From Escherichia coli phage Wa28, in the sequence record LC788710.1: a stretch of DNA of 64,000 bases; one strand, given 5' to 3'. The notes under the pieces were generated by a model. That model was given only the letters and a program-made list of their open reading frames with translations, was not told the origin of the DNA and ran no database searches. Below, piece after piece: positions 763 to 64,000 of the stretch. A program made the position numbers and the translations under genes. How positions within the stretch are numbered: position 1 is the first letter of the stretch; each line of letters starts with the position of its first letter.

Positions 763-837
763 GGCTTTCTCCTATCATTAAGTTTTTAAAGCCCCCTTTG
801 CTTTAAAAGGCGGGAATTACCCCGCCTTGATTTATTA

Positions 838-1251
838 TCAGACTAATTCTACGTGACCACCGTCGTAAGTACCACGATCGATCTCATCATGATAATCACC
901 AGAACTATTCCAGTCGGCACCAAAACGAAGTTTGACACCAAGTTCCTTACCGGCTTGTTCAAAAGCCTTCTTAACAGCCCAAAATGCTTCCAGATCTTTC
1001 CAATCAATCTTTCCATTAATATATGGTGCAAAATCGATAGCGTCTCCAGTTACATGCTTACTCTTGCTAGGGTCTTTCAAAAATGAAGTACCATTAGCAA
1101 TGTTTTGGGCACTTTGTGCTACTGTACGAATACCCTGTACGATTGTGAAATCATATGGAGATAATTCTAAAGCCCTACGAGCTACCTTTTGTAGCTCGGG
1201 CTTAACAGTTGCTAATTGTTTTTCGCTATTTTTACCAAATTTAAAACTCAT
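838..1251 (-). CDS. lys: endolysin, L-alanyl-D-glutamate peptidase (M15 family zinc peptidase)
   Basis: 137 aa; motifs HVTGDAIDF and DGGHVEL typical of M15 peptidases; size and position match T5 endolysin. Confidence 0.75.
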   Translation of the reverse strand: MSFKFGKNSEKQLATVKPELQKVARRALELSPYDFTIVQGIRTVAQSAQNIANGTSFLKDPSKSKHVTGDAIDFAPYINGKIDWKDLEAFWAVKKAFEQAGKELGVKLRFGADWNSSGDYHDEIDRGTYDGGHVELV

Positions 1252-5998: not shown

Positions 5999-6449
5999 GT
6001 TCTTCTCTCCGACGTTTGCGTTCTTTCATCATGTAAGCTGCTACAACTTCATGGTAGTAGTCGTTAATGTTACCTTCAGGCAAGAAATGCTTAATCGTTT
6101 CTAGCTGGCAGACAACACGGTAAAGATGTTTATTTGGTAAACATAATTTCATGCCCATAACAAATCCAGAGAAGCCTGGAACACTGAACATGGGTTGGGC
6201 TTCTACGTTGCCCTCTGGATTGATACTAAGTTCAATCGAGATGCCCATTTTCATGCTATAAAGCTGACAGCCTTCACCATTGCCAAATCTTGACCAAACA
6301 GTGAAGTCCTCATCTATCTGATCTTGGATTTCTTCGACTGCATGTTTAATTCTAGGGTCTAAATTACTCATCTTCACCTTCAAAGCCGCAGTCATAACGG
6401 CAAGTAAAAGAATCAGAACTATTAGTACGTTGAGTAGTGATTTCACCAC
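5952..6449 (-). CDS. hypothetical protein (N-terminal TM, basic C-terminus)
   Basis: ORF track 165 aa. Confidence 0.45.
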   Translation of the reverse strand: MVKSLLNVLIVLILLLAVMTAALKVKMSNLDPRIKHAVEEIQDQIDEDFTVWSRFGNGEGCQLYSMKMGISIELSINPEGNVEAQPMFSVPGFSGFVMGMKLCLPNKHLYRVVCQLETIKHFLPEGNINDYYHEVVAAYMMKERKRRREERERAKSQQSSTDSSN

Positions 6450-6663
6450 GTTTACTAACAGTAATAGCCGGAGTAGAGAAGTTTTTATTAGTATAGATTT
6501 CTACTTTGCCATTACGTTCTTTAACATCACGTACTTTACCATATTCGGTGGTAATGCCGTTCTGCTGAACTTTAACATTACCATTTTTCATAGAAACTTT
6601 GGTAGATGCCAGAGAACCGAAACTAACTGCTGAAATTACCAGAGCAATAATAAACTTATTCAT
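6364..6663 (-). CDS. small secreted protein (signal peptide); start moved to internal Met
   Basis: ATG at 6661-6663 with GAGGAAG SD; MNKFIIALVISAVSFGSLA signal peptide. Confidence 0.5.
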   Translation of the reverse strand: MNKFIIALVISAVSFGSLASTKVSMKNGNVKVQQNGITTEYGKVRDVKERNGKVEIYTNKNFSTPAITVSKRGEITTQRTNSSDSFTCRYDCGFEGEDE

Positions 6664-6937
6664 CAGGATCTTCCTCATTACAGTCACGGCATACATCATA
6701 ATCGTTGTAAGAATGTTCGTGCGCTTCACACCACCAGCCACATTCGTCACACAGAAAGATTTCGGTCTTTTCAATGGCTTGGCCTAGTAATTCGTAGGCT
6801 TCATCATGTGTAATCTTCAGGCTACAAACATCAGCTACTTGTTGAACAATCAGACTCCCTACTTTGTGGTAGGACATGCAGGTTCCTTGTGCATCATGCT
6901 CAAGGACGTGGATAGCACAGTCTAAGCGATTTTTCAT
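6656..6937 (-). CDS. cysteine-rich small protein (possible zinc-binding)
   Basis: 93 aa; CDECGWWCEAHEH...CRDCNEED; promoter plus SD directly upstream. Confidence 0.5.
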   Translation of the reverse strand: MKNRLDCAIHVLEHDAQGTCMSYHKVGSLIVQQVADVCSLKITHDEAYELLGQAIEKTEIFLCDECGWWCEAHEHSYNDYDVCRDCNEEDPDE

Positions 6938-59954: not shown

Positions 59955-61773
59955 GACACTAAAATTCAGCAACGTCATGTCTTACGGTAAGGATATCGTA
60001 ATTCATTTCGATAAGAATCCAGTTACTCAGTTAATTGGAGGAAATGGTCTAGGGAAGTCCACTATTGCTACTGTTATTGAGGAATTGTTTTATAACAAGA
60101 ACTCACGTGGTATCAAGAAGGACGCCCTATTCTCTTGGGGTTCTCCGAAGAAAGAGTATGATATGCACGCTTACTTCTCGAAAGATGAAGATGAGTATGA
60201 ATTGCATAAAGTAGTTAAATCAACTGCTAAGGTTACGCTGATTAAGAACGGGGAAGATATCAGTGGGCACACAGCAACTCAAACGTACAAGATGATTGAA
60301 GAGATTATGGGTGGTGACTTCCAAACATTCACTAAACTGATCTATCAATCTGTTGGTTCCAATCTAGACTTCCTCAAAGCAACTGATGCAACACGTAAAG
60401 CTTTTCTTGTTAATCTGTTCAATCAGGAACAGTATAAAGAGATGTCAGAAACTATTAAGGCTGATCGTAAAGAAGTGGCAAGTACGTTAAGTAACTTGCA
60501 AGGCCAGATGGCCGTAATTACGAAGATCCTCAATGGAAAAGGTAATCTCGGAAGTTTACAAGAACCAGTTGAAGTTCCAGAGTTTGATGAAGAACCGTTA
60601 GCACAAGAACTTACTGAATCGAAAATTAAGGCGGCATTAGCCAAGTCACAAGAGGCTAATATTACTAAACTCCGTAATTTGGACAAAGCTGTACAAGTTG
60701 CCGAACAATCTTTCGAGCCTTTCAAAAATTTCCCTGCGCCCACTGACCAATCTGAAGAGATCTCAAGTGTTACGCGTGACCTAACGATCGTTACCTCACG
60801 TGCGGGAGAAGTCAAGAAACGTTATCAGAAGTTCAAGCAAGAGGCTTCAAATACTGAATGTCCTACTTGTGGCACTCACCTTGATACAACTGCTGCTCAA
60901 AAAGCCATGGATATGGCTAGAACAGAATATGATCCTCTGTTTAAAGAGAAACAATCTCTTGAAGCTACATTGGAGCAGTTGAAGAAAGAACAAGTCGAGT
61001 ACACTGCGTATACTAGAGCTAAGGATGCTTTGGATAAGGCAGTAGCAGCTAGAGACGAATTCAAAAATTCAATGAGTGATGCTTCTTTTGAAGAACTCAA
61101 TGTGCAAATCCTACAGGTGCAAATCCGACAATTAGAACAGGAAATCGCAGATGGACGTTCTAAAGTTGCAATTGCCAAAGAACATAATGCAAATGTCGAA
61201 TTAGCCAATGCAAAGTATAAAGCGAAACTAGAACAGATTGAGAAAGCTGAGGCAGAAATGTCTGAGATAACGTCCAAACTGGAAGGAGTATCAGAAGCTG
61301 TTGCTGATCTTGATATTCTGATCGCTGCATTGAAAAATCTGGTAGGATATAAACTAGAGCATAGTGTGAAAGTATTTGAGGAATTAATTAATAAATATCT
61401 TTCTATTATGACTGGTGGTAAGTTCGCACTTGGATTTGAACTTGATGAAACTAAATTACAAGTAGTAATCTTCAATGATGGAAATCGTACTAGTATGGAG
61501 AACTGCTCCACTGGTCAGCAAAGTAGAATTAATTTAGCAACTCTGTTAGCTATTCGAATGCTGTTAACATCTATCAGCAAAGTTAATATTAATCTTCTGT
61601 TCCTTGACGAAGTTATTAGCTTTATTGATACGAAAGGACTTGATACTCTCGTTGAATTATTAAATGAGGAAGATAGTCTAAACTCTATCATTGTTTCTCA
61701 TGGGCATACGCATCCATTAGCCCATAAGATTACTGTCAAAAAAGATGCAGAAGGATTTTCCTACTTAGAATAA
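59935..61773 (+). CDS. SbcC/Rad50-like ATPase
   Basis: 612 aa; Walker A GGNGLGKST, central coiled coil with CPTCG hook, C-terminal LLFLDEV. Confidence 0.75.
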   Translation: MSKITIKTLKFSNVMSYGKDIVIHFDKNPVTQLIGGNGLGKSTIATVIEELFYNKNSRGIKKDALFSWGSPKKEYDMHAYFSKDEDEYELHKVVKSTAKVTLIKNGEDISGHTATQTYKMIEEIMGGDFQTFTKLIYQSVGSNLDFLKATDATRKAFLVNLFNQEQYKEMSETIKADRKEVASTLSNLQGQMAVITKILNGKGNLGSLQEPVEVPEFDEEPLAQELTESKIKAALAKSQEANITKLRNLDKAVQVAEQSFEPFKNFPAPTDQSEEISSVTRDLTIVTSRAGEVKKRYQKFKQEASNTECPTCGTHLDTTAAQKAMDMARTEYDPLFKEKQSLEATLEQLKKEQVEYTAYTRAKDALDKAVAARDEFKNSMSDASFEELNVQILQVQIRQLEQEIADGRSKVAIAKEHNANVELANAKYKAKLEQIEKAEAEMSEITSKLEGVSEAVADLDILIAALKNLVGYKLEHSVKVFEELINKYLSIMTGGKFALGFELDETKLQVVIFNDGNRTSMENCSTGQQSRINLATLLAIRMLLTSISKVNINLLFLDEVISFIDTKGLDTLVELLNEEDSLNSIIVSHGHTHPLAHKITVKKDAEGFSYLE

Positions 61774-62259: not shown

Positions 62260-63134
62260 TGAGTAAATCCTGGGGAAAATTTATTGAAGAGGAAGAAGCT
62301 GAGCTGGCTTCTCGTCGCAACCTAATGATTGTTGACGGAACTAACTTAGGCTTCCGCTTTAAGCATAATAACAGTAAGAAACCTTTTGCTTCTAGTTATG
62401 TATCAACGATTCAATCTTTAGCGAAATCTTACTCTGCTAGAACTACGATCGTCCTTGGTGATAAAGGTAAGTCTGTGTTCCGTCTTGAACATCTTCCTGA
62501 TTATAAAGGCAATCGTGATGAAAAGTATGCACAACGTACAGAAGAAGAGAAAGCTCTAGATGAGCAGTTCTTTGAGTATCTTCGTGACGCTTTCGAGTTG
62601 TGTGAAACTACATTTCCAACCTTCACTATTCGCGGTGTAGAAGCAGATGATATGGCAGCTTATATTGTTAAGCTCATTGGTCACTTATATGATCACGTTT
62701 GGCTGATCTCTACTGATGGTGACTGGGATACTTTATTAACTGATCGAGTTTCTCGCTTCTCCTTTACCACACGTCGTGAATACCATCTTCGTGATATGTA
62801 TGAACACCATAACGTTGATGATGTTGACCAGTTTATCTCTCTGAAAGCAATCATGGGAGATCTTGGTGATAACATTCGTGGTGTTGAGGGCATTGGTGCA
62901 AAACGTGGTTATAATATTATACGTGAATTTGGTAATGTTCTGGATATTATTGATCAACTCCCGTTGCCTGGGAAACAGAAATATATACAGAATCTGAACG
63001 CATCGGAGGAGTTGCTTTTCCGAAACTTGATTCTGGTTGATTTACCGACCTATTGTGTAGATGCTATTGCTGCTGTAGGTCAAGACGTATTAGATAAGTT
63101 TACGAAAGATATTTTGGAGATCGCAGGACAATGA
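62259..63134 (+). CDS. flap endonuclease / 5'-3' exonuclease
   Basis: 291 aa; N-terminal MIVDGTNLGFRF and FEN-like acidic motifs; matches T5 5'-exonuclease in size. Confidence 0.85.
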   Translation: MSKSWGKFIEEEEAELASRRNLMIVDGTNLGFRFKHNNSKKPFASSYVSTIQSLAKSYSARTTIVLGDKGKSVFRLEHLPDYKGNRDEKYAQRTEEEKALDEQFFEYLRDAFELCETTFPTFTIRGVEADDMAAYIVKLIGHLYDHVWLISTDGDWDTLLTDRVSRFSFTTRREYHLRDMYEHHNVDDVDQFISLKAIMGDLGDNIRGVEGIGAKRGYNIIREFGNVLDIIDQLPLPGKQKYIQNLNASEELLFRNLILVDLPTYCVDAIAAVGQDVLDKFTKDILEIAGQ

Positions 63135-63577
63135 TTAAAATTAAACTAACTCATCCAGATTGCATGCCGAAGATTGGTTCTGATGATGCCGCAGGTATGG
63201 ATCTGCGCGCATTCTTCGGTACTAACCTTGCAGCAGATTTACGTGCTATTGCACCAGGCAAATCCCTTATGATTGACACCGGTGTCGCGGTGGAAATTCC
63301 GCGAGGTTGGTTTGGTTTGGTAGTTCCTCGCAGCTCTTTAGGTAAGCGTAAACTGATGATCGCAAACACCGCAGGAGTGATCGACTCAGACTACCGTGGT
63401 ACTATTAAGATGAACCTTTATAACTACGGTTCTGAAATGCAAACTCTGGAGAATTTCGAGAGACTTTGTCAGCTAGTGGTACTACCACACTATTCAACCC
63501 ATCATTTTGAAATCGTTGACGAACTAGAGGAGACTGATCGTGGAGAAGGCGGCTTTGGAAGCTCAGGAAGTAAATAA
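63131..63577 (+). CDS. dut: dUTP diphosphatase
   Basis: 148 aa; AAGMDLRA, IANTAGVIDSDYRGTI, GEGGFGSSG dUTPase motifs. Confidence 0.85.
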   Translation: MIKIKLTHPDCMPKIGSDDAAGMDLRAFFGTNLAADLRAIAPGKSLMIDTGVAVEIPRGWFGLVVPRSSLGKRKLMIANTAGVIDSDYRGTIKMNLYNYGSEMQTLENFERLCQLVVLPHYSTHHFEIVDELEETDRGEGGFGSSGSK

Positions 63578-63806
63578 TTTTGCTGATCCTAATATGGTAG
63601 GGGTAGATGTAGACCAACCTAATTTTTGCAAGATTGATATTAAATACGTTGAACCTGAGAAAATAGTATTGAGGGTTGATGTATCTGGTGTAGTAGAACA
63701 GTGGGATGAAGAAGGATTTATCGCACTTTGCACTGAATCTCAAGATCATATGCTTAAAGCCATGCTAGCAGTATATAACTTAGGTAGTATTGCAGGTAGT
63801 AGATAA
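63540..63806 (+). CDS. hypothetical small protein
   Basis: ORF track 88 aa, overlaps dut end. Confidence 0.4.
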   Translation: MEKAALEAQEVNNFADPNMVGVDVDQPNFCKIDIKYVEPEKIVLRVDVSGVVEQWDEEGFIALCTESQDHMLKAMLAVYNLGSIAGSR

Positions 63807-63812
63807 TAATAA

Positions 63813-63848
63813 ACCCCAGTGGACAATCCACTGGGGTTTTCTCTTATT
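63813..63848. terminator. bidirectional rho-independent terminator
   Basis: CCCCAGTGG-ACAAT-CCACTGGGG with T-runs on both strands. Confidence 0.65.
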
Positions 63849-63889
63849 TAGTAAGGAGTTGTTTTACTAATTCCTTTATTTTATTAATC

Positions 63890-63914
63890 TTTTTTTTTTT
63901 TTTTTTTTTTTTTT
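63890..63914. repeat. homopolymeric T25 tract
   Basis: 25 consecutive T residues. Confidence 0.95.
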
Positions 63915-63938
63915 GAGAGGGTGCAAAACGAACCTCTT

Positions 63939-63966
63939 GCATTTTGCATTTTGCATTTTGCGTTTT
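63939..63966. repeat. tandem heptamer repeat (GCATTTT x3 plus GCGTTTT)
   Basis: gcattttgcattttgcattttgcgtttt. Confidence 0.9.
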
Positions 63967-64000
63967 CATATTGTACATAAGAACAGCCTAAGAATCAGCG

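What the first reader, a model, noticed from the sequence alone, without database searches (positions are those of the whole stretch)
63890..63966. T25 homopolymer plus GCATTTT heptamer repeats just past a bidirectional terminator
A 25-nt oligo-T run, then a short hairpin (GAGAGG..CCTCTT), then three GCATTTT units and one GCGTTTT unit lie at the boundary after the dUTPase operon. Long homopolymers and short tandem repeats are prone to slippage and can mark replication origins, DNA bending sites or regulatory switches.
Basis: seen in the sequence. Interest (0 to 1): 0.45.

Follow-up and report, generated by a model that had tools for sequence, protein, structure and literature searches.

The report
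Slippery T-run in tail-fibre gene debris
The 25-T run, small hairpin and GCATTTT repeats are real, but they lie in the decaying leftovers of two old genes between the early and late gene blocks of a T5-like Salmonella phage, and they vary freely between relatives, so this is most likely ordinary junk DNA rather than an origin or a switch.

Summary
In detail: T25 at 63890-63914, a weak hairpin at 63915-63938, and four heptamers at 63939-63966, just past the bidirectional terminator at 63811-63839.

The window is a T5-like phage (Epseptimavirus, 99% identical to Salmonella phage BD13). The feature sits in a ~260-bp gap between the convergent early operon and the late tail-fibre gene, and this gap is gene debris.
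- 63844-63889 (minus strand) is the fossil of the last 15 codons of an older tail-fibre gene.
- 63915 onward (minus strand) is a truncated fragment of a phrog_9288 gene with in-frame stops. That gene is intact just downstream of the tail-fibre genes of T1-like phages.
- The hairpin and heptamers are former codons of that gene. The T-run sits exactly at the junction of the two fossils.

In 18 related genomes the run is 4 to 25 T and the heptamers number 2 to 4. T5 itself lacks the whole segment. Outgroups show the run grew from AATCTTTTGTACTGAGAGG by point changes plus slippage. Several public assemblies break or garble here.

No promoter, second terminator or Rfam family is present. A sub-threshold PreQ1 riboswitch hit appears only where the poly-A exists.

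Verdict: a recombination scar carrying hypermutable simple repeats. A function is unlikely, and interest is low.

The parts
63131..63577 (+). dUTPase gene, second-to-last gene of the early (+ strand) operon.
   Evidence: 148-aa ORF. It is annotated as dUTPase in BD13, faergetype, Seafire and T5.
63540..63806 (+). 88-aa hypothetical ORF (VOG3976 in relatives), the last gene of the early operon. It overlaps the end of dut.
   Evidence: ORF list. It is annotated as a CDS in faergetype and Seafire.
63811..63839 (.). Bidirectional intrinsic terminator separating the convergent early and late transcription units.
   Evidence: 13-pair stem with 7 G-C pairs, scoring on both strands. It is annotated as a terminator on both strands in Seafire and Seabear and on the + strand in T5. 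It is conserved in all relatives examined.
63844..63889 (-). Fossil of the last 15 codons plus stop (INKIKELVKQLLTK*) of an older tail-fibre gene whose stop once abutted the terminator.
   Evidence: 35 of 46 nt are identical to the real 3' end of the INF11 fibre gene and 34 of 46 to that of Seabear, at the same distance from the terminator. Seabear's gene ends QKQEIDELKKLVKQLIDK* and carries a Peptidase_S74 chaperone domain.
63890..63914 (.). T25 homopolymer (A25 on the minus strand) at the junction of the two fossils. It is hypervariable between relatives.
   Evidence: Lengths of 4 to 25 were read in 18 genomes. The ancestral-like state in H8 is AATCTTTTGTACTGAGAGG.
63915..64000 (-). Truncated pseudogene fragment of a phrog_9288 gene, corresponding to residues about 148-202 of the 237-aa protein. 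It runs about 95 nt beyond the window end, up to the stop of the current tail-fibre gene (about 64103 by alignment with BD13).
   Evidence: blastn shows 80% identity over 133 nt to PHB07 gp23, plus the hairpin segment at 24 of 28. tblastn gives E = 9e-14 with two in-frame stops. PHB07 gp23 matches phrog_9288 at E = 1.7e-124. The gene order, tail fibre then phrog_9288, is the same as in PHB07 and grams.
63915..63938 (.). It lies inside the pseudogene, at the former codons ...QEVRFAPSQ.
   Evidence: The intact gene has TGAGACAGTGCAAAACGAGCCTCTTGCA, where the stem is not complementary. The stem is broken without compensation in Eps7 (GAAAGG), and a second stem position differs in GRNsp8 (CCTTTT).
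63939..63966 (.). Heptamer array of 3 x GCATTTT plus GCGTTTT, an expansion inside former coding DNA.
   Evidence: The intact gene has GCAATTGCGCTTT with no array. There are 2 units in H8, gmork, PMBT26, Shivani, GRNsp8 and OSY-STA, 3 in fuchur, and 4 in the window and the BD13 group.

Best explanation
The feature is a recombination or deletion scar made of gene debris, with no dedicated function.

The window comes from a T5-like Epseptimavirus. Between the terminator of the early operon and the stop codon of the current late tail-fibre gene lie about 260 bp left over from earlier swaps of the tail-fibre cassette. The first piece is the last 15 codons of an older tail-fibre gene. The second is a truncated, stop-riddled fragment of a phrog_9288 gene, which in T1-like phages sits just downstream of the tail fibre.

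The T-run lies exactly at the joint between these two fossils. It began as a short T4-T5 stretch (AATCTTTTGTACTGAGAGG). Point changes made it pure, and replication slippage then lengthened it to different extents in different lineages. The heptamers are a tandem expansion of a proto-repeat in the dead gene's codons, and the hairpin is a chance by-product of two substitutions in those codons.

Shown here: the homologies, the in-frame stops, the truncations, the length variation and the absence from T5. Inferred: that slippage is the mechanism and that the repeats are selectively neutral.
For: 1. Identity and context.
- The closest relative is Salmonella phage BD13 at 99%.
- The genes are convergent, with the tail-fibre stop about 190 bp past the T-run.

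2. The left fossil.
- 35 of 46 and 34 of 46 nt are identical to the true 3' ends of the INF11 and Seabear fibre genes, which abut the same terminator.
- The peptide INKIKELVKQLLTK* compares with Seabear's ...IDELKKLVKQLIDK*.

3. The right fossil.
- The spacer matches coding genes of Drexlerviridae.
- blastn shows 80% identity over 133 nt, plus the hairpin segment.
- tblastn gives E = 9e-14 with in-frame TAA and TAG where the intact gene has CAA and CAG.
- gmork, vaffelhjerte and SP_Thor keep nearly the whole gene but share the same stops.
- The family is phrog_9288. It is intact in many about 50-60-kb siphophages.

4. Variation.
- The T-run is 4, 4, 5, 5, 6, 7, 8, 11, 12, 13, 15, 15, 15, 17, 17, 18, 22 and 25 nt in the 18 genomes, and the heptamers number 2 to 4.
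- T5 has an unrelated spacer.

5. Polarity.
- Outgroups on both sides (INF11 and Seabear on the left, PHB07 on the right) match the short H8-like state, not the long run.

6. No signals.
- No promoter-like site and no extra terminator were found.
- The DNA fold is not significant.
- No Rfam family reaches threshold.

7. The run is troublesome to sequence.
- The SP76 record ends inside it.
- The rutana and bobsandoy assemblies are garbled exactly here.
Against: - The run reached more than 15 nt in two sub-lineages with different boundary states. The BD13 group keeps the left C, and gmork keeps the right CT. This fits a mutational bias but could also reflect selection for a long tract.
- The debris is retained at 83-100% identity in at least 177 phage records. 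I did not test whether that exceeds neutral expectation.
- Published lengths of long homopolymers are unreliable, so part of the variation may be sequencing error rather than biology.
- No expression, replication or fitness data were available.
Confidence: 0.85

Rival explanations
1. The poly(dA:dT) tract and the repeats are a functional DNA element, such as a replication origin or DNA-unwinding element, a bend, or a barrier between the convergent transcription units.
For: It is the only long homopolymer in 64 kb. It is AT-rich (GC about 0.34 in this stretch). It lies at the early/late boundary. T5 is reported to have multiple internal origins that are not mapped to sequence (PMC3632103, citing Bourguignon 1976). 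Long runs arose in two sub-lineages.
Against: It is absent from T5 and only T4-T8 in seven relatives. The supposed iterons have a 7-bp period, vary from 2 to 4 copies, and are derived from codons. The cumulative GC skew is at a maximum here rather than a minimum, though this is confounded by gene orientation. No conserved non-coding block is distinct from the surrounding pseudogene.
Confidence: 0.04
2. On the minus strand, the hairpin plus A-run forms an RNA element in the 3' UTR of the late tail-fibre transcript. It could be a PreQ1-I-like aptamer or an encoded poly(A) tract that affects mRNA stability or readthrough of the terminator.
For: A sub-threshold Rfam hit to RF00522 PreQ1 lies at 63942-63900 on the minus strand, scoring 26.1 bits with E = 0.002. 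It matches GGUUCGU, CCCUCU and the A-rich tail. BD13 scores 24.5 bits and gmork 23.2 bits. An intrinsic terminator follows about 60 nt downstream on that strand.
Against: The score is far below the gathering threshold of 39 bits. The CUAAGG tail, which forms the P2 pairing and the Shine-Dalgarno sequence, is missing. No gene lies downstream on that strand. The hit is not reported (E up to 10) for H8, Shivani, Eps7 and PHB07, where the poly-A is short or the stem is altered. BD13 has U at the position aligned with the C next to the 3' stem, which is the ligand-pairing C from my memory of the B. subtilis aptamer. The sequence is former coding DNA whose stem is absent from the intact gene.
Confidence: 0.03
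3. The debris is kept because it serves as a conserved homology arm that lets tail-fibre cassettes be exchanged by recombination between phages. The repeats themselves would still be incidental.
For: The same spacer flanks different upstream fibre genes: the 983-aa BD13 type and the gmork/vaffelhjerte type. BLAST homology of many relatives breaks at about 63851-63902. The fragment is shared with Drexlerviridae, where the same gene follows the fibre gene.
Against: This pattern is equally what passive hitch-hiking of flanking DNA would produce. No test of selection was made. It does not explain the T-run or the heptamers.
Confidence: 0.12
4. The long T-run is a sequencing or assembly artefact.
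For: Assemblies break or are garbled here. Reported lengths form a near-continuous series from 11 to 25 among near-identical genomes.
Against: A run of at least 11 T appears at the same place in 11 independently sequenced genomes besides the window. Its existence is therefore real, and only the exact length is uncertain.
Confidence: 0.03

Closest known systems
Gene remnants and mosaic-module junctions in tailed phages (debris left by tail-fibre cassette exchange)
   Same: There are truncated, stop-containing fragments of identifiable genes (the end of a Peptidase_S74-type fibre gene, and phrog_9288). They lie at the 3' flank of the host-range gene. The same flank is shared by phages carrying different fibre genes, and with another family, Drexlerviridae.
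   Different: Two nested fossils are joined by a homopolymer that has grown to 25 nt. I found no paper describing this particular locus.
Simple-sequence repeats (homopolymers and microsatellites) born by point mutation plus replication slippage in unconstrained DNA
   Same: There is a graded series from T4 to T25 and from 2 to 4 heptamers, with the ancestral state fixed by outgroups. It is the only run of 8 or more in 64 kb of otherwise densely coding DNA.
   Different: Unlike bacterial contingency loci, the repeat lies in neither an intact ORF nor a promoter spacer, so length changes have no obvious read-out.
PreQ1-I riboswitch aptamer (Rfam RF00522)
   Same: There is a 5-bp stem, AGAGG/CCUCU, with a loop starting UUCG and ending in C. 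It is followed by an A-rich tail.
   Different: The score is 26.1 bits against the 39-bit gathering threshold. There is no CUAAGG tail and no regulated gene. The element is made of former codons plus a recently grown poly-A, and no hit is reported in relatives with short runs.
Spacer between the terminator and ltf in phage T5 (AY587007, 81730-81949)
   Same: It has the same position: after the conserved terminator that follows the dut operon, and before the convergent L-shaped tail-fibre gene.
   Different: The sequence is unrelated, with no T-run and no heptamers. It has a second annotated terminator next to the ltf stop.

Membership tests
Pseudogene fragment of phrog_9288 | Significant sequence similarity to intact family members | tested here: met
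   blastn shows 80% identity over 133 nt, plus 24 of 28 over the hairpin segment. tblastn gives E = 9e-14 for BD13 and 7e-4 for the part inside the window. PHB07 gp23 matches phrog_9288 at E = 1.7e-124.
Pseudogene fragment of phrog_9288 | Reading frame disrupted or truncated | tested here: met
   There are two in-frame stops (TAA and TAG where the intact gene has CAA and CAG). Only residues about 148-202 of 237 remain. The C-terminal 35 codons are replaced at the T-run.
Pseudogene fragment of phrog_9288 | Conserved gene order (immediately downstream of a tail-fibre gene, on the same strand) | tested here: met
   In PHB07 the order is gp22 fibre then gp23. In grams it is grams_61, annotated hypothetical but weakly similar to the BD13 fibre, then grams_60. 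The window and BD13 have the fibre gene followed by the fragment.
Fossil 3' end of a Peptidase_S74-type tail-fibre gene | Similarity to the true gene end at the same distance from the shared terminator | tested here: met
   35 of 46 nt match INF11 and 34 of 46 match Seabear. The H8 version matches at 40 of 56 and 39 of 56. The Seabear fibre carries PF13884 at E = 4e-13. The stretch is short, so the support is positional plus identity rather than an E-value.
Replication origin (DNA-unwinding element plus initiator-binding iterons) | Element conserved across related phages | tested here: not met
   It is absent from T5. The run is T4-T8 in seven relatives, and the heptamers vary from 2 to 4.
Replication origin (DNA-unwinding element plus initiator-binding iterons) | Replication initiates here | not testable with these tools
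   T5 origins are known only from electron microscopy as multiple internal origins (PMC3632103). The GC skew is confounded by gene orientation.
PreQ1-I riboswitch (RF00522) | Covariance-model score at or above the gathering threshold | tested here: not met
   26.1 bits against 39.
PreQ1-I riboswitch (RF00522) | 3' tail able to form P2 (CUAAGG), and a regulated downstream gene | tested here: not met
   The tail is pure A. Downstream on the minus strand lie only the fossil and the terminator, followed by the antisense of the early genes.
Intrinsic terminator | G+C-rich hairpin followed directly by a T-run on the transcribed strand | tested here: not met
   For the 63915-63938 hairpin, the T-run precedes it on the + strand and an A-run follows it on the minus strand. 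The scans report only the 63811-63839 terminator in this gap.
Sigma-70 promoter | -35 and -10 hexamers with 16-18 nt spacing | tested here: not met
   There are 0 sites in 63000-64000. In BD13 6250-6750 the only site lies inside the fibre gene.
Phase-variable contingency locus | Repeat length varies between isolates | tested here: met
   The run is T4 to T25 in 18 genomes. Part of this may be sequencing error.
Phase-variable contingency locus | Repeat lies within an intact ORF or a promoter spacer, so that its length switches expression | tested here: not met
   The only ORF across it is a 44-aa poly-Lys artefact (63844..63978, minus strand) assembled from the two fossils. No promoter was found.

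The most novel reading that the evidence does not exclude
The long A/T tract may be maintained or repeatedly selected, since it grew beyond 15 nt in two sub-lineages. It could be a functional element at the early/late boundary. One possibility is an encoded poly(A) stretch in the 3' UTR of the late tail-fibre mRNA that tunes its stability. Another is a DNA-level barrier or unwinding site between the convergent transcription units.
Probability: 0.05. Interest if true: 0.45.

Novelty: new member of a known kind. Interest (0 to 1): 0.13.

Why it matters
The scientific value is small.
- It documents step by step how a homopolymer and a microsatellite are born in phage junk DNA, with outgroups on both sides.
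- It shows that the 3' flank of the host-range (lateral tail-fibre) gene of Epseptimaviruses is a layered record of past cassette swaps, including one gene shared with T1-like phages.

The practical value is larger.
- The run is a recurrent breakpoint and source of garbage in public assemblies of these phages.
- It spawns spurious annotated ORFs with poly-Lys stretches.
- Anyone engineering the tail fibres of these phages should know that this flank is dispensable-looking debris with a tract that is hard to sequence.

Tried and rejected
- An IMG/VR scan with a 24-nt pattern from the terminator flank found only one contig, apparently phage H8. Relatives therefore had to be fetched one at a time from GenBank records.
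- Rfam at permissive thresholds gave only sub-threshold hits. The His_leader, rimP and NsiR1 hits are all driven by the terminator hairpin. The PreQ1 hit was followed up and rejected.
- Promoter and terminator scans found nothing new in the gap.
- The single-strand DNA fold of 63880-63990 is not better than shuffles.
- The RNA fold of the 306-nt minus-strand gap gives z = -4.5, but the stretch folded includes the 13-bp terminator stem.
- Pfam gives nothing for phrog_9288 proteins.
- Two literature searches found no paper on this locus and no sequence-level T5 origin.
- I considered whether 63844-63889 could instead be the C-terminal continuation of phrog_9288 (KINQVEQLV against KINKIKELV). I rejected this because blastn finds no nucleotide similarity there, whereas the fibre-gene ends match at 74-76% in the same position.
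- I considered suppressor-tRNA readthrough of the shared in-frame stops. I rejected this because the stops are of different kinds (TAA and TAG) and the gene is also truncated at both ends and frameshifted in relatives.
- I considered T5 nick sites. The GCGC consensus, recalled from memory of Nichols and Donelson 1977, does not occur in 63840-64000.

Full report
**What is in the sequence**

- T25 lies at 63890-63914.
- GAGAGG, a 12-nt loop and CCTCTT lie at 63915-63938.
- Three GCATTTT units and one GCGTTTT lie at 63939-63966.

Tandem Repeats Finder reports the run (25 copies, 100% matches) and the 7-nt array (4.3 copies, 95% matches). The terminator at 63811-63839 has a 13-pair stem and scores on both strands. 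It follows dut (63131-63577) and an overlapping 88-aa ORF (63540-63806).

T25 is the only homopolymer of 8 or more of any base in the whole 64-kb window. Only three tandem arrays in the window reach TRF score 50, and two of them are these. The repeats are therefore real and not chance.

The hairpin is weak. The minimum-free-energy DNA fold does not use it, and the region folds no better than shuffled sequence (z = -0.95).

**Where it is**

The last 500 bases are 99% identical to Salmonella phage BD13 and 94-99% identical to dozens of other Epseptimaviruses, which are T5-like phages of the family Demerecviridae.

In BD13, faergetype and Seafire, the early operon on the + strand runs D13, D14, flap endonuclease, dut and a small ORF, and ends at the terminator. 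The next gene is the late tail-fibre gene on the minus strand, whose stop lies about 190 bp beyond the T-run. By alignment with BD13, that stop would be at about window position 64103, just outside the window.

The feature therefore sits in a gap of about 260 bp between convergent transcription units.

**The left part of the gap is the fossil of an older tail-fibre gene**

In Seabear, INF11, Spc35, LVR16A and mar003J3, a minus-strand gene abuts the same terminator directly. It is annotated as tail fibre in four of these and as hypothetical in INF11.

The window's 63844-63889 is 35 of 46 nt identical to the 3' end of the INF11 gene and 34 of 46 to that of Seabear, at the same distance from the terminator. 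The phage H8 version matches at 40 of 56 and 39 of 56.

Translated on the minus strand, the window reads INKIKELVKQLLTK*, and Seabear's gene ends QKQEIDELKKLVKQLIDK*. Seabear's fibre carries a Peptidase_S74 intramolecular chaperone domain, as does the current BD13 fibre.

**The right part is a dead phrog_9288 gene**

A sensitive search with the spacer beyond the T-run (BD13 L001 6413-6600) gave two kinds of result. It found 177 records in all, mostly T5-like phages at 83-100% identity. It also hit annotated protein-coding genes of unrelated ~50-kb T1-like phages (Drexlerviridae) at 73-80% identity.

In PHB07 and grams, that gene encodes a 237-aa or 233-aa hypothetical protein and lies immediately downstream of the tail-fibre gene on the same strand. 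It belongs to phrog_9288 (E = 1.7e-124) and has no Pfam domain.

blastn aligns BD13 to PHB07 at 80% over 133 nt. The hairpin segment aligns separately, TGAGAGGATGCAAAACGAACCTCTTGCA against TGAGACAGTGCAAAACGAGCCTCTTGCA.

tblastn on the minus strand gives E = 9e-14. BD13's VQSVTEKYCCETSLNIDYPSNATRVLLC*QFADS*AVLMYNMKTQNAKCKMQEVRFASSQ aligns to residues 148-202 of the intact protein, with two in-frame stops. These are TAA and TAG where the intact gene has CAA and CAG (sequences).

Only about 55 of the 237 codons remain. The N-terminal 147 codons are replaced by the end of the current fibre gene, and the C-terminal 35 are cut off at the T-run.

gmork, vaffelhjerte and SP_Thor keep almost the full length but share the same stops, with extra frameshifts. 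The gene was therefore already dead in their common ancestor. Intact copies are widespread in Drexlerviridae, Nonagvirus-like phages, Yersinia phage PY100 and Edwardsiella phage eiAU.

**What the three elements are**

The hairpin and heptamers are former codons.
- *Hairpin.* In the intact gene the would-be stem is GAGACA...CCTCTT, which is not complementary. The hairpin is thus a by-product of two substitutions. The stem is broken without compensation in Eps7 (GAAAGG), and a second stem position differs in GRNsp8 (CCTTTT).
- *Heptamers.* The intact gene has GCAATTGCGCTTT. H8, gmork, PMBT26, Shivani, GRNsp8 and OSY-STA have two units, fuchur has three, and the window and the BD13 group have four.
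- *T-run.* It sits exactly at the joint of the two fossils. In H8 and rutana the joint reads AATCTTTTGTACTGAGAGG.

The longest T-run at the joint, read directly in 18 genomes:

| Run length | Genomes |
|---|---|
| 4 | H8, rutana |
| 5 | Shivani, SP_Thor |
| 6 | GRNsp8 |
| 7 | vaffelhjerte |
| 8 | PMBT26 |
| 11 | Eps7 |
| 12 | OSY-STA |
| 13 | Seafire |
| 15 | faergetype, fuchur, bobsandoy |
| 17 | SuperGirl, gmork |
| 18 | 1-29 |
| 22 | BD13 |
| 25 | the window |

Outgroups on both sides agree with the short state. The real fibre genes read ...ATCAATTTCTTGCTTTTG on the left, and the intact phrog_9288 gene reads ...CGCCTGAGACAG on the right. The long run is therefore derived. It became pure through point changes and then lengthened.

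The BD13 group keeps the left-hand C, and the gmork group keeps the right-hand CT. Long runs therefore arose at least twice.

T5 itself has an unrelated spacer with no run and a second terminator next to ltf.

**Tests of functional readings**

- No sigma-70-like promoter and no additional terminator occur in the gap.
- The cumulative GC skew peaks at the gap, as expected where genes converge. This is not the minimum seen at bacterial origins, although the test is confounded by gene orientation.
- The literature available here describes T5 origins only as multiple internal origins seen by electron microscopy (PMC3632103). I found no paper on this locus.

The one intriguing result was a sub-threshold Rfam hit. 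The minus-strand hairpin plus A-run scores 26.1 bits against the PreQ1-I aptamer, whose gathering threshold is 39, with E = 0.002 for this small search.

I reject this hit as a look-alike for five reasons.
- It lacks the CUAAGG tail that forms P2 and the ribosome-binding site.
- No gene follows it on that strand.
- It is assembled from former codons plus a recently grown poly-A.
- BD13 has U at the position aligned with the C next to the 3' stem. From my memory of the B. subtilis aptamer, that is the ligand-pairing C.
- Nothing is reported for H8, Shivani, Eps7 or PHB07, where the poly-A is short or the stem is altered, while gmork with T17 scores 23.2 bits.

**Artefact aspects**

A run of at least 11 T is present in 11 other independently sequenced genomes, so it exists. 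Its exact length is doubtful.
- The SP76 GenBank record ends inside the run.
- The rutana and bobsandoy records contain degenerate duplicated copies with poly-C and poly-A runs exactly here.

Some of the length variation may therefore be technical.

**Conclusion**

The best-supported reading (confidence about 0.85) is a recombination scar at the 3' flank of the host-range gene. It consists of two nested gene fossils joined by a homopolymer, and slippage has inflated both the homopolymer and a microsatellite inside the dead gene.

Two doubts remain: the run expanded in parallel in two sub-lineages, and the debris is retained in many genomes. Both are compatible with mutational bias and hitch-hiking, but neither has been proved neutral.

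I rate the novelty as a new member of a known kind, and the interest as low.

Noticed in passing
L015 2363..3076 (-) (PHB07 gp23); L016 2360..3061 (-) (grams_60); pseudogene copies at L005 1616-2212 (-), L026 691-1326 (+) and L027 697-1400 (+): phrog_9288 is a conserved protein of about 235 aa with unknown function. It has a Gly-rich N-terminus, a CCCE motif and a C-terminal PTPPTPPTGCCGC. It sits just downstream of the tail-fibre genes of Drexlerviridae, Nonagvirus-like phages, PY100 and eiAU. One BASEL phage labels it 'putative sugar-binding protein'. Every T5-like copy I examined is dead and shares the same stop codons.
   Followed up: partly
L006 1490-1760 (rutana, MT074468); L007 1200-1300 (bobsandoy, NC_092683): These public assemblies contain degenerate duplicated copies of the terminator-to-heptamer stretch, with long poly-C and poly-A runs. 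This looks like low-quality read ends assembled at the homopolymer. It is deposited as genome sequence, and part of it is annotated as repeat_region.
   Followed up: partly
L025 (SP76, NC_103216, 111380-111639) and positions 26-517 of the same record: The SP76 record ends inside the T-run, and its two ends both contain the hairpin, heptamer and spacer stretch. The contig was therefore broken at the homopolymer and the overlap was not trimmed.
   Followed up: yes
window 63844..63978 (-); BD13_46 (L001 6345..6476, -); SuperGirl bas29_0022 and bas29_0021 (L019 645..749 and 799..924, -): Small ORFs across the debris are annotated as genes in several records, including a 43-44-aa ORF with a poly-Lys stretch encoded by the A-run. 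SuperGirl labels two such fragments 'tail fiber protein'. These are fossil fragments, not genes.
   Followed up: yes
window about 63851-63902: BLAST homology of many relatives with other fibre genes (Spc35, Seabear, INF11, LVR16A, smaug, TrudiGerster and others) stops within this 50-nt span. The fossil and T-run thus mark the boundary of the exchangeable tail-fibre module.
   Followed up: partly
L001 6601..9552 (-) residues 433-618 against L015 3904-4629: The middle of the BD13-type tail fibre is 47-49% identical in protein to the PHB07 (Drexlerviridae) tail fibre, gp22. This hints that fibre segments, and not only the downstream gene, are shared between the two phage families.
   Followed up: no
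window 61102-61130: A 15-nt unit (GTGCAAATCCGACAG) is present in 1.9 tandem copies inside the D13 (SbcC-like) gene. It is the only other tandem array in the window with TRF score of 50 or more.
   Followed up: no
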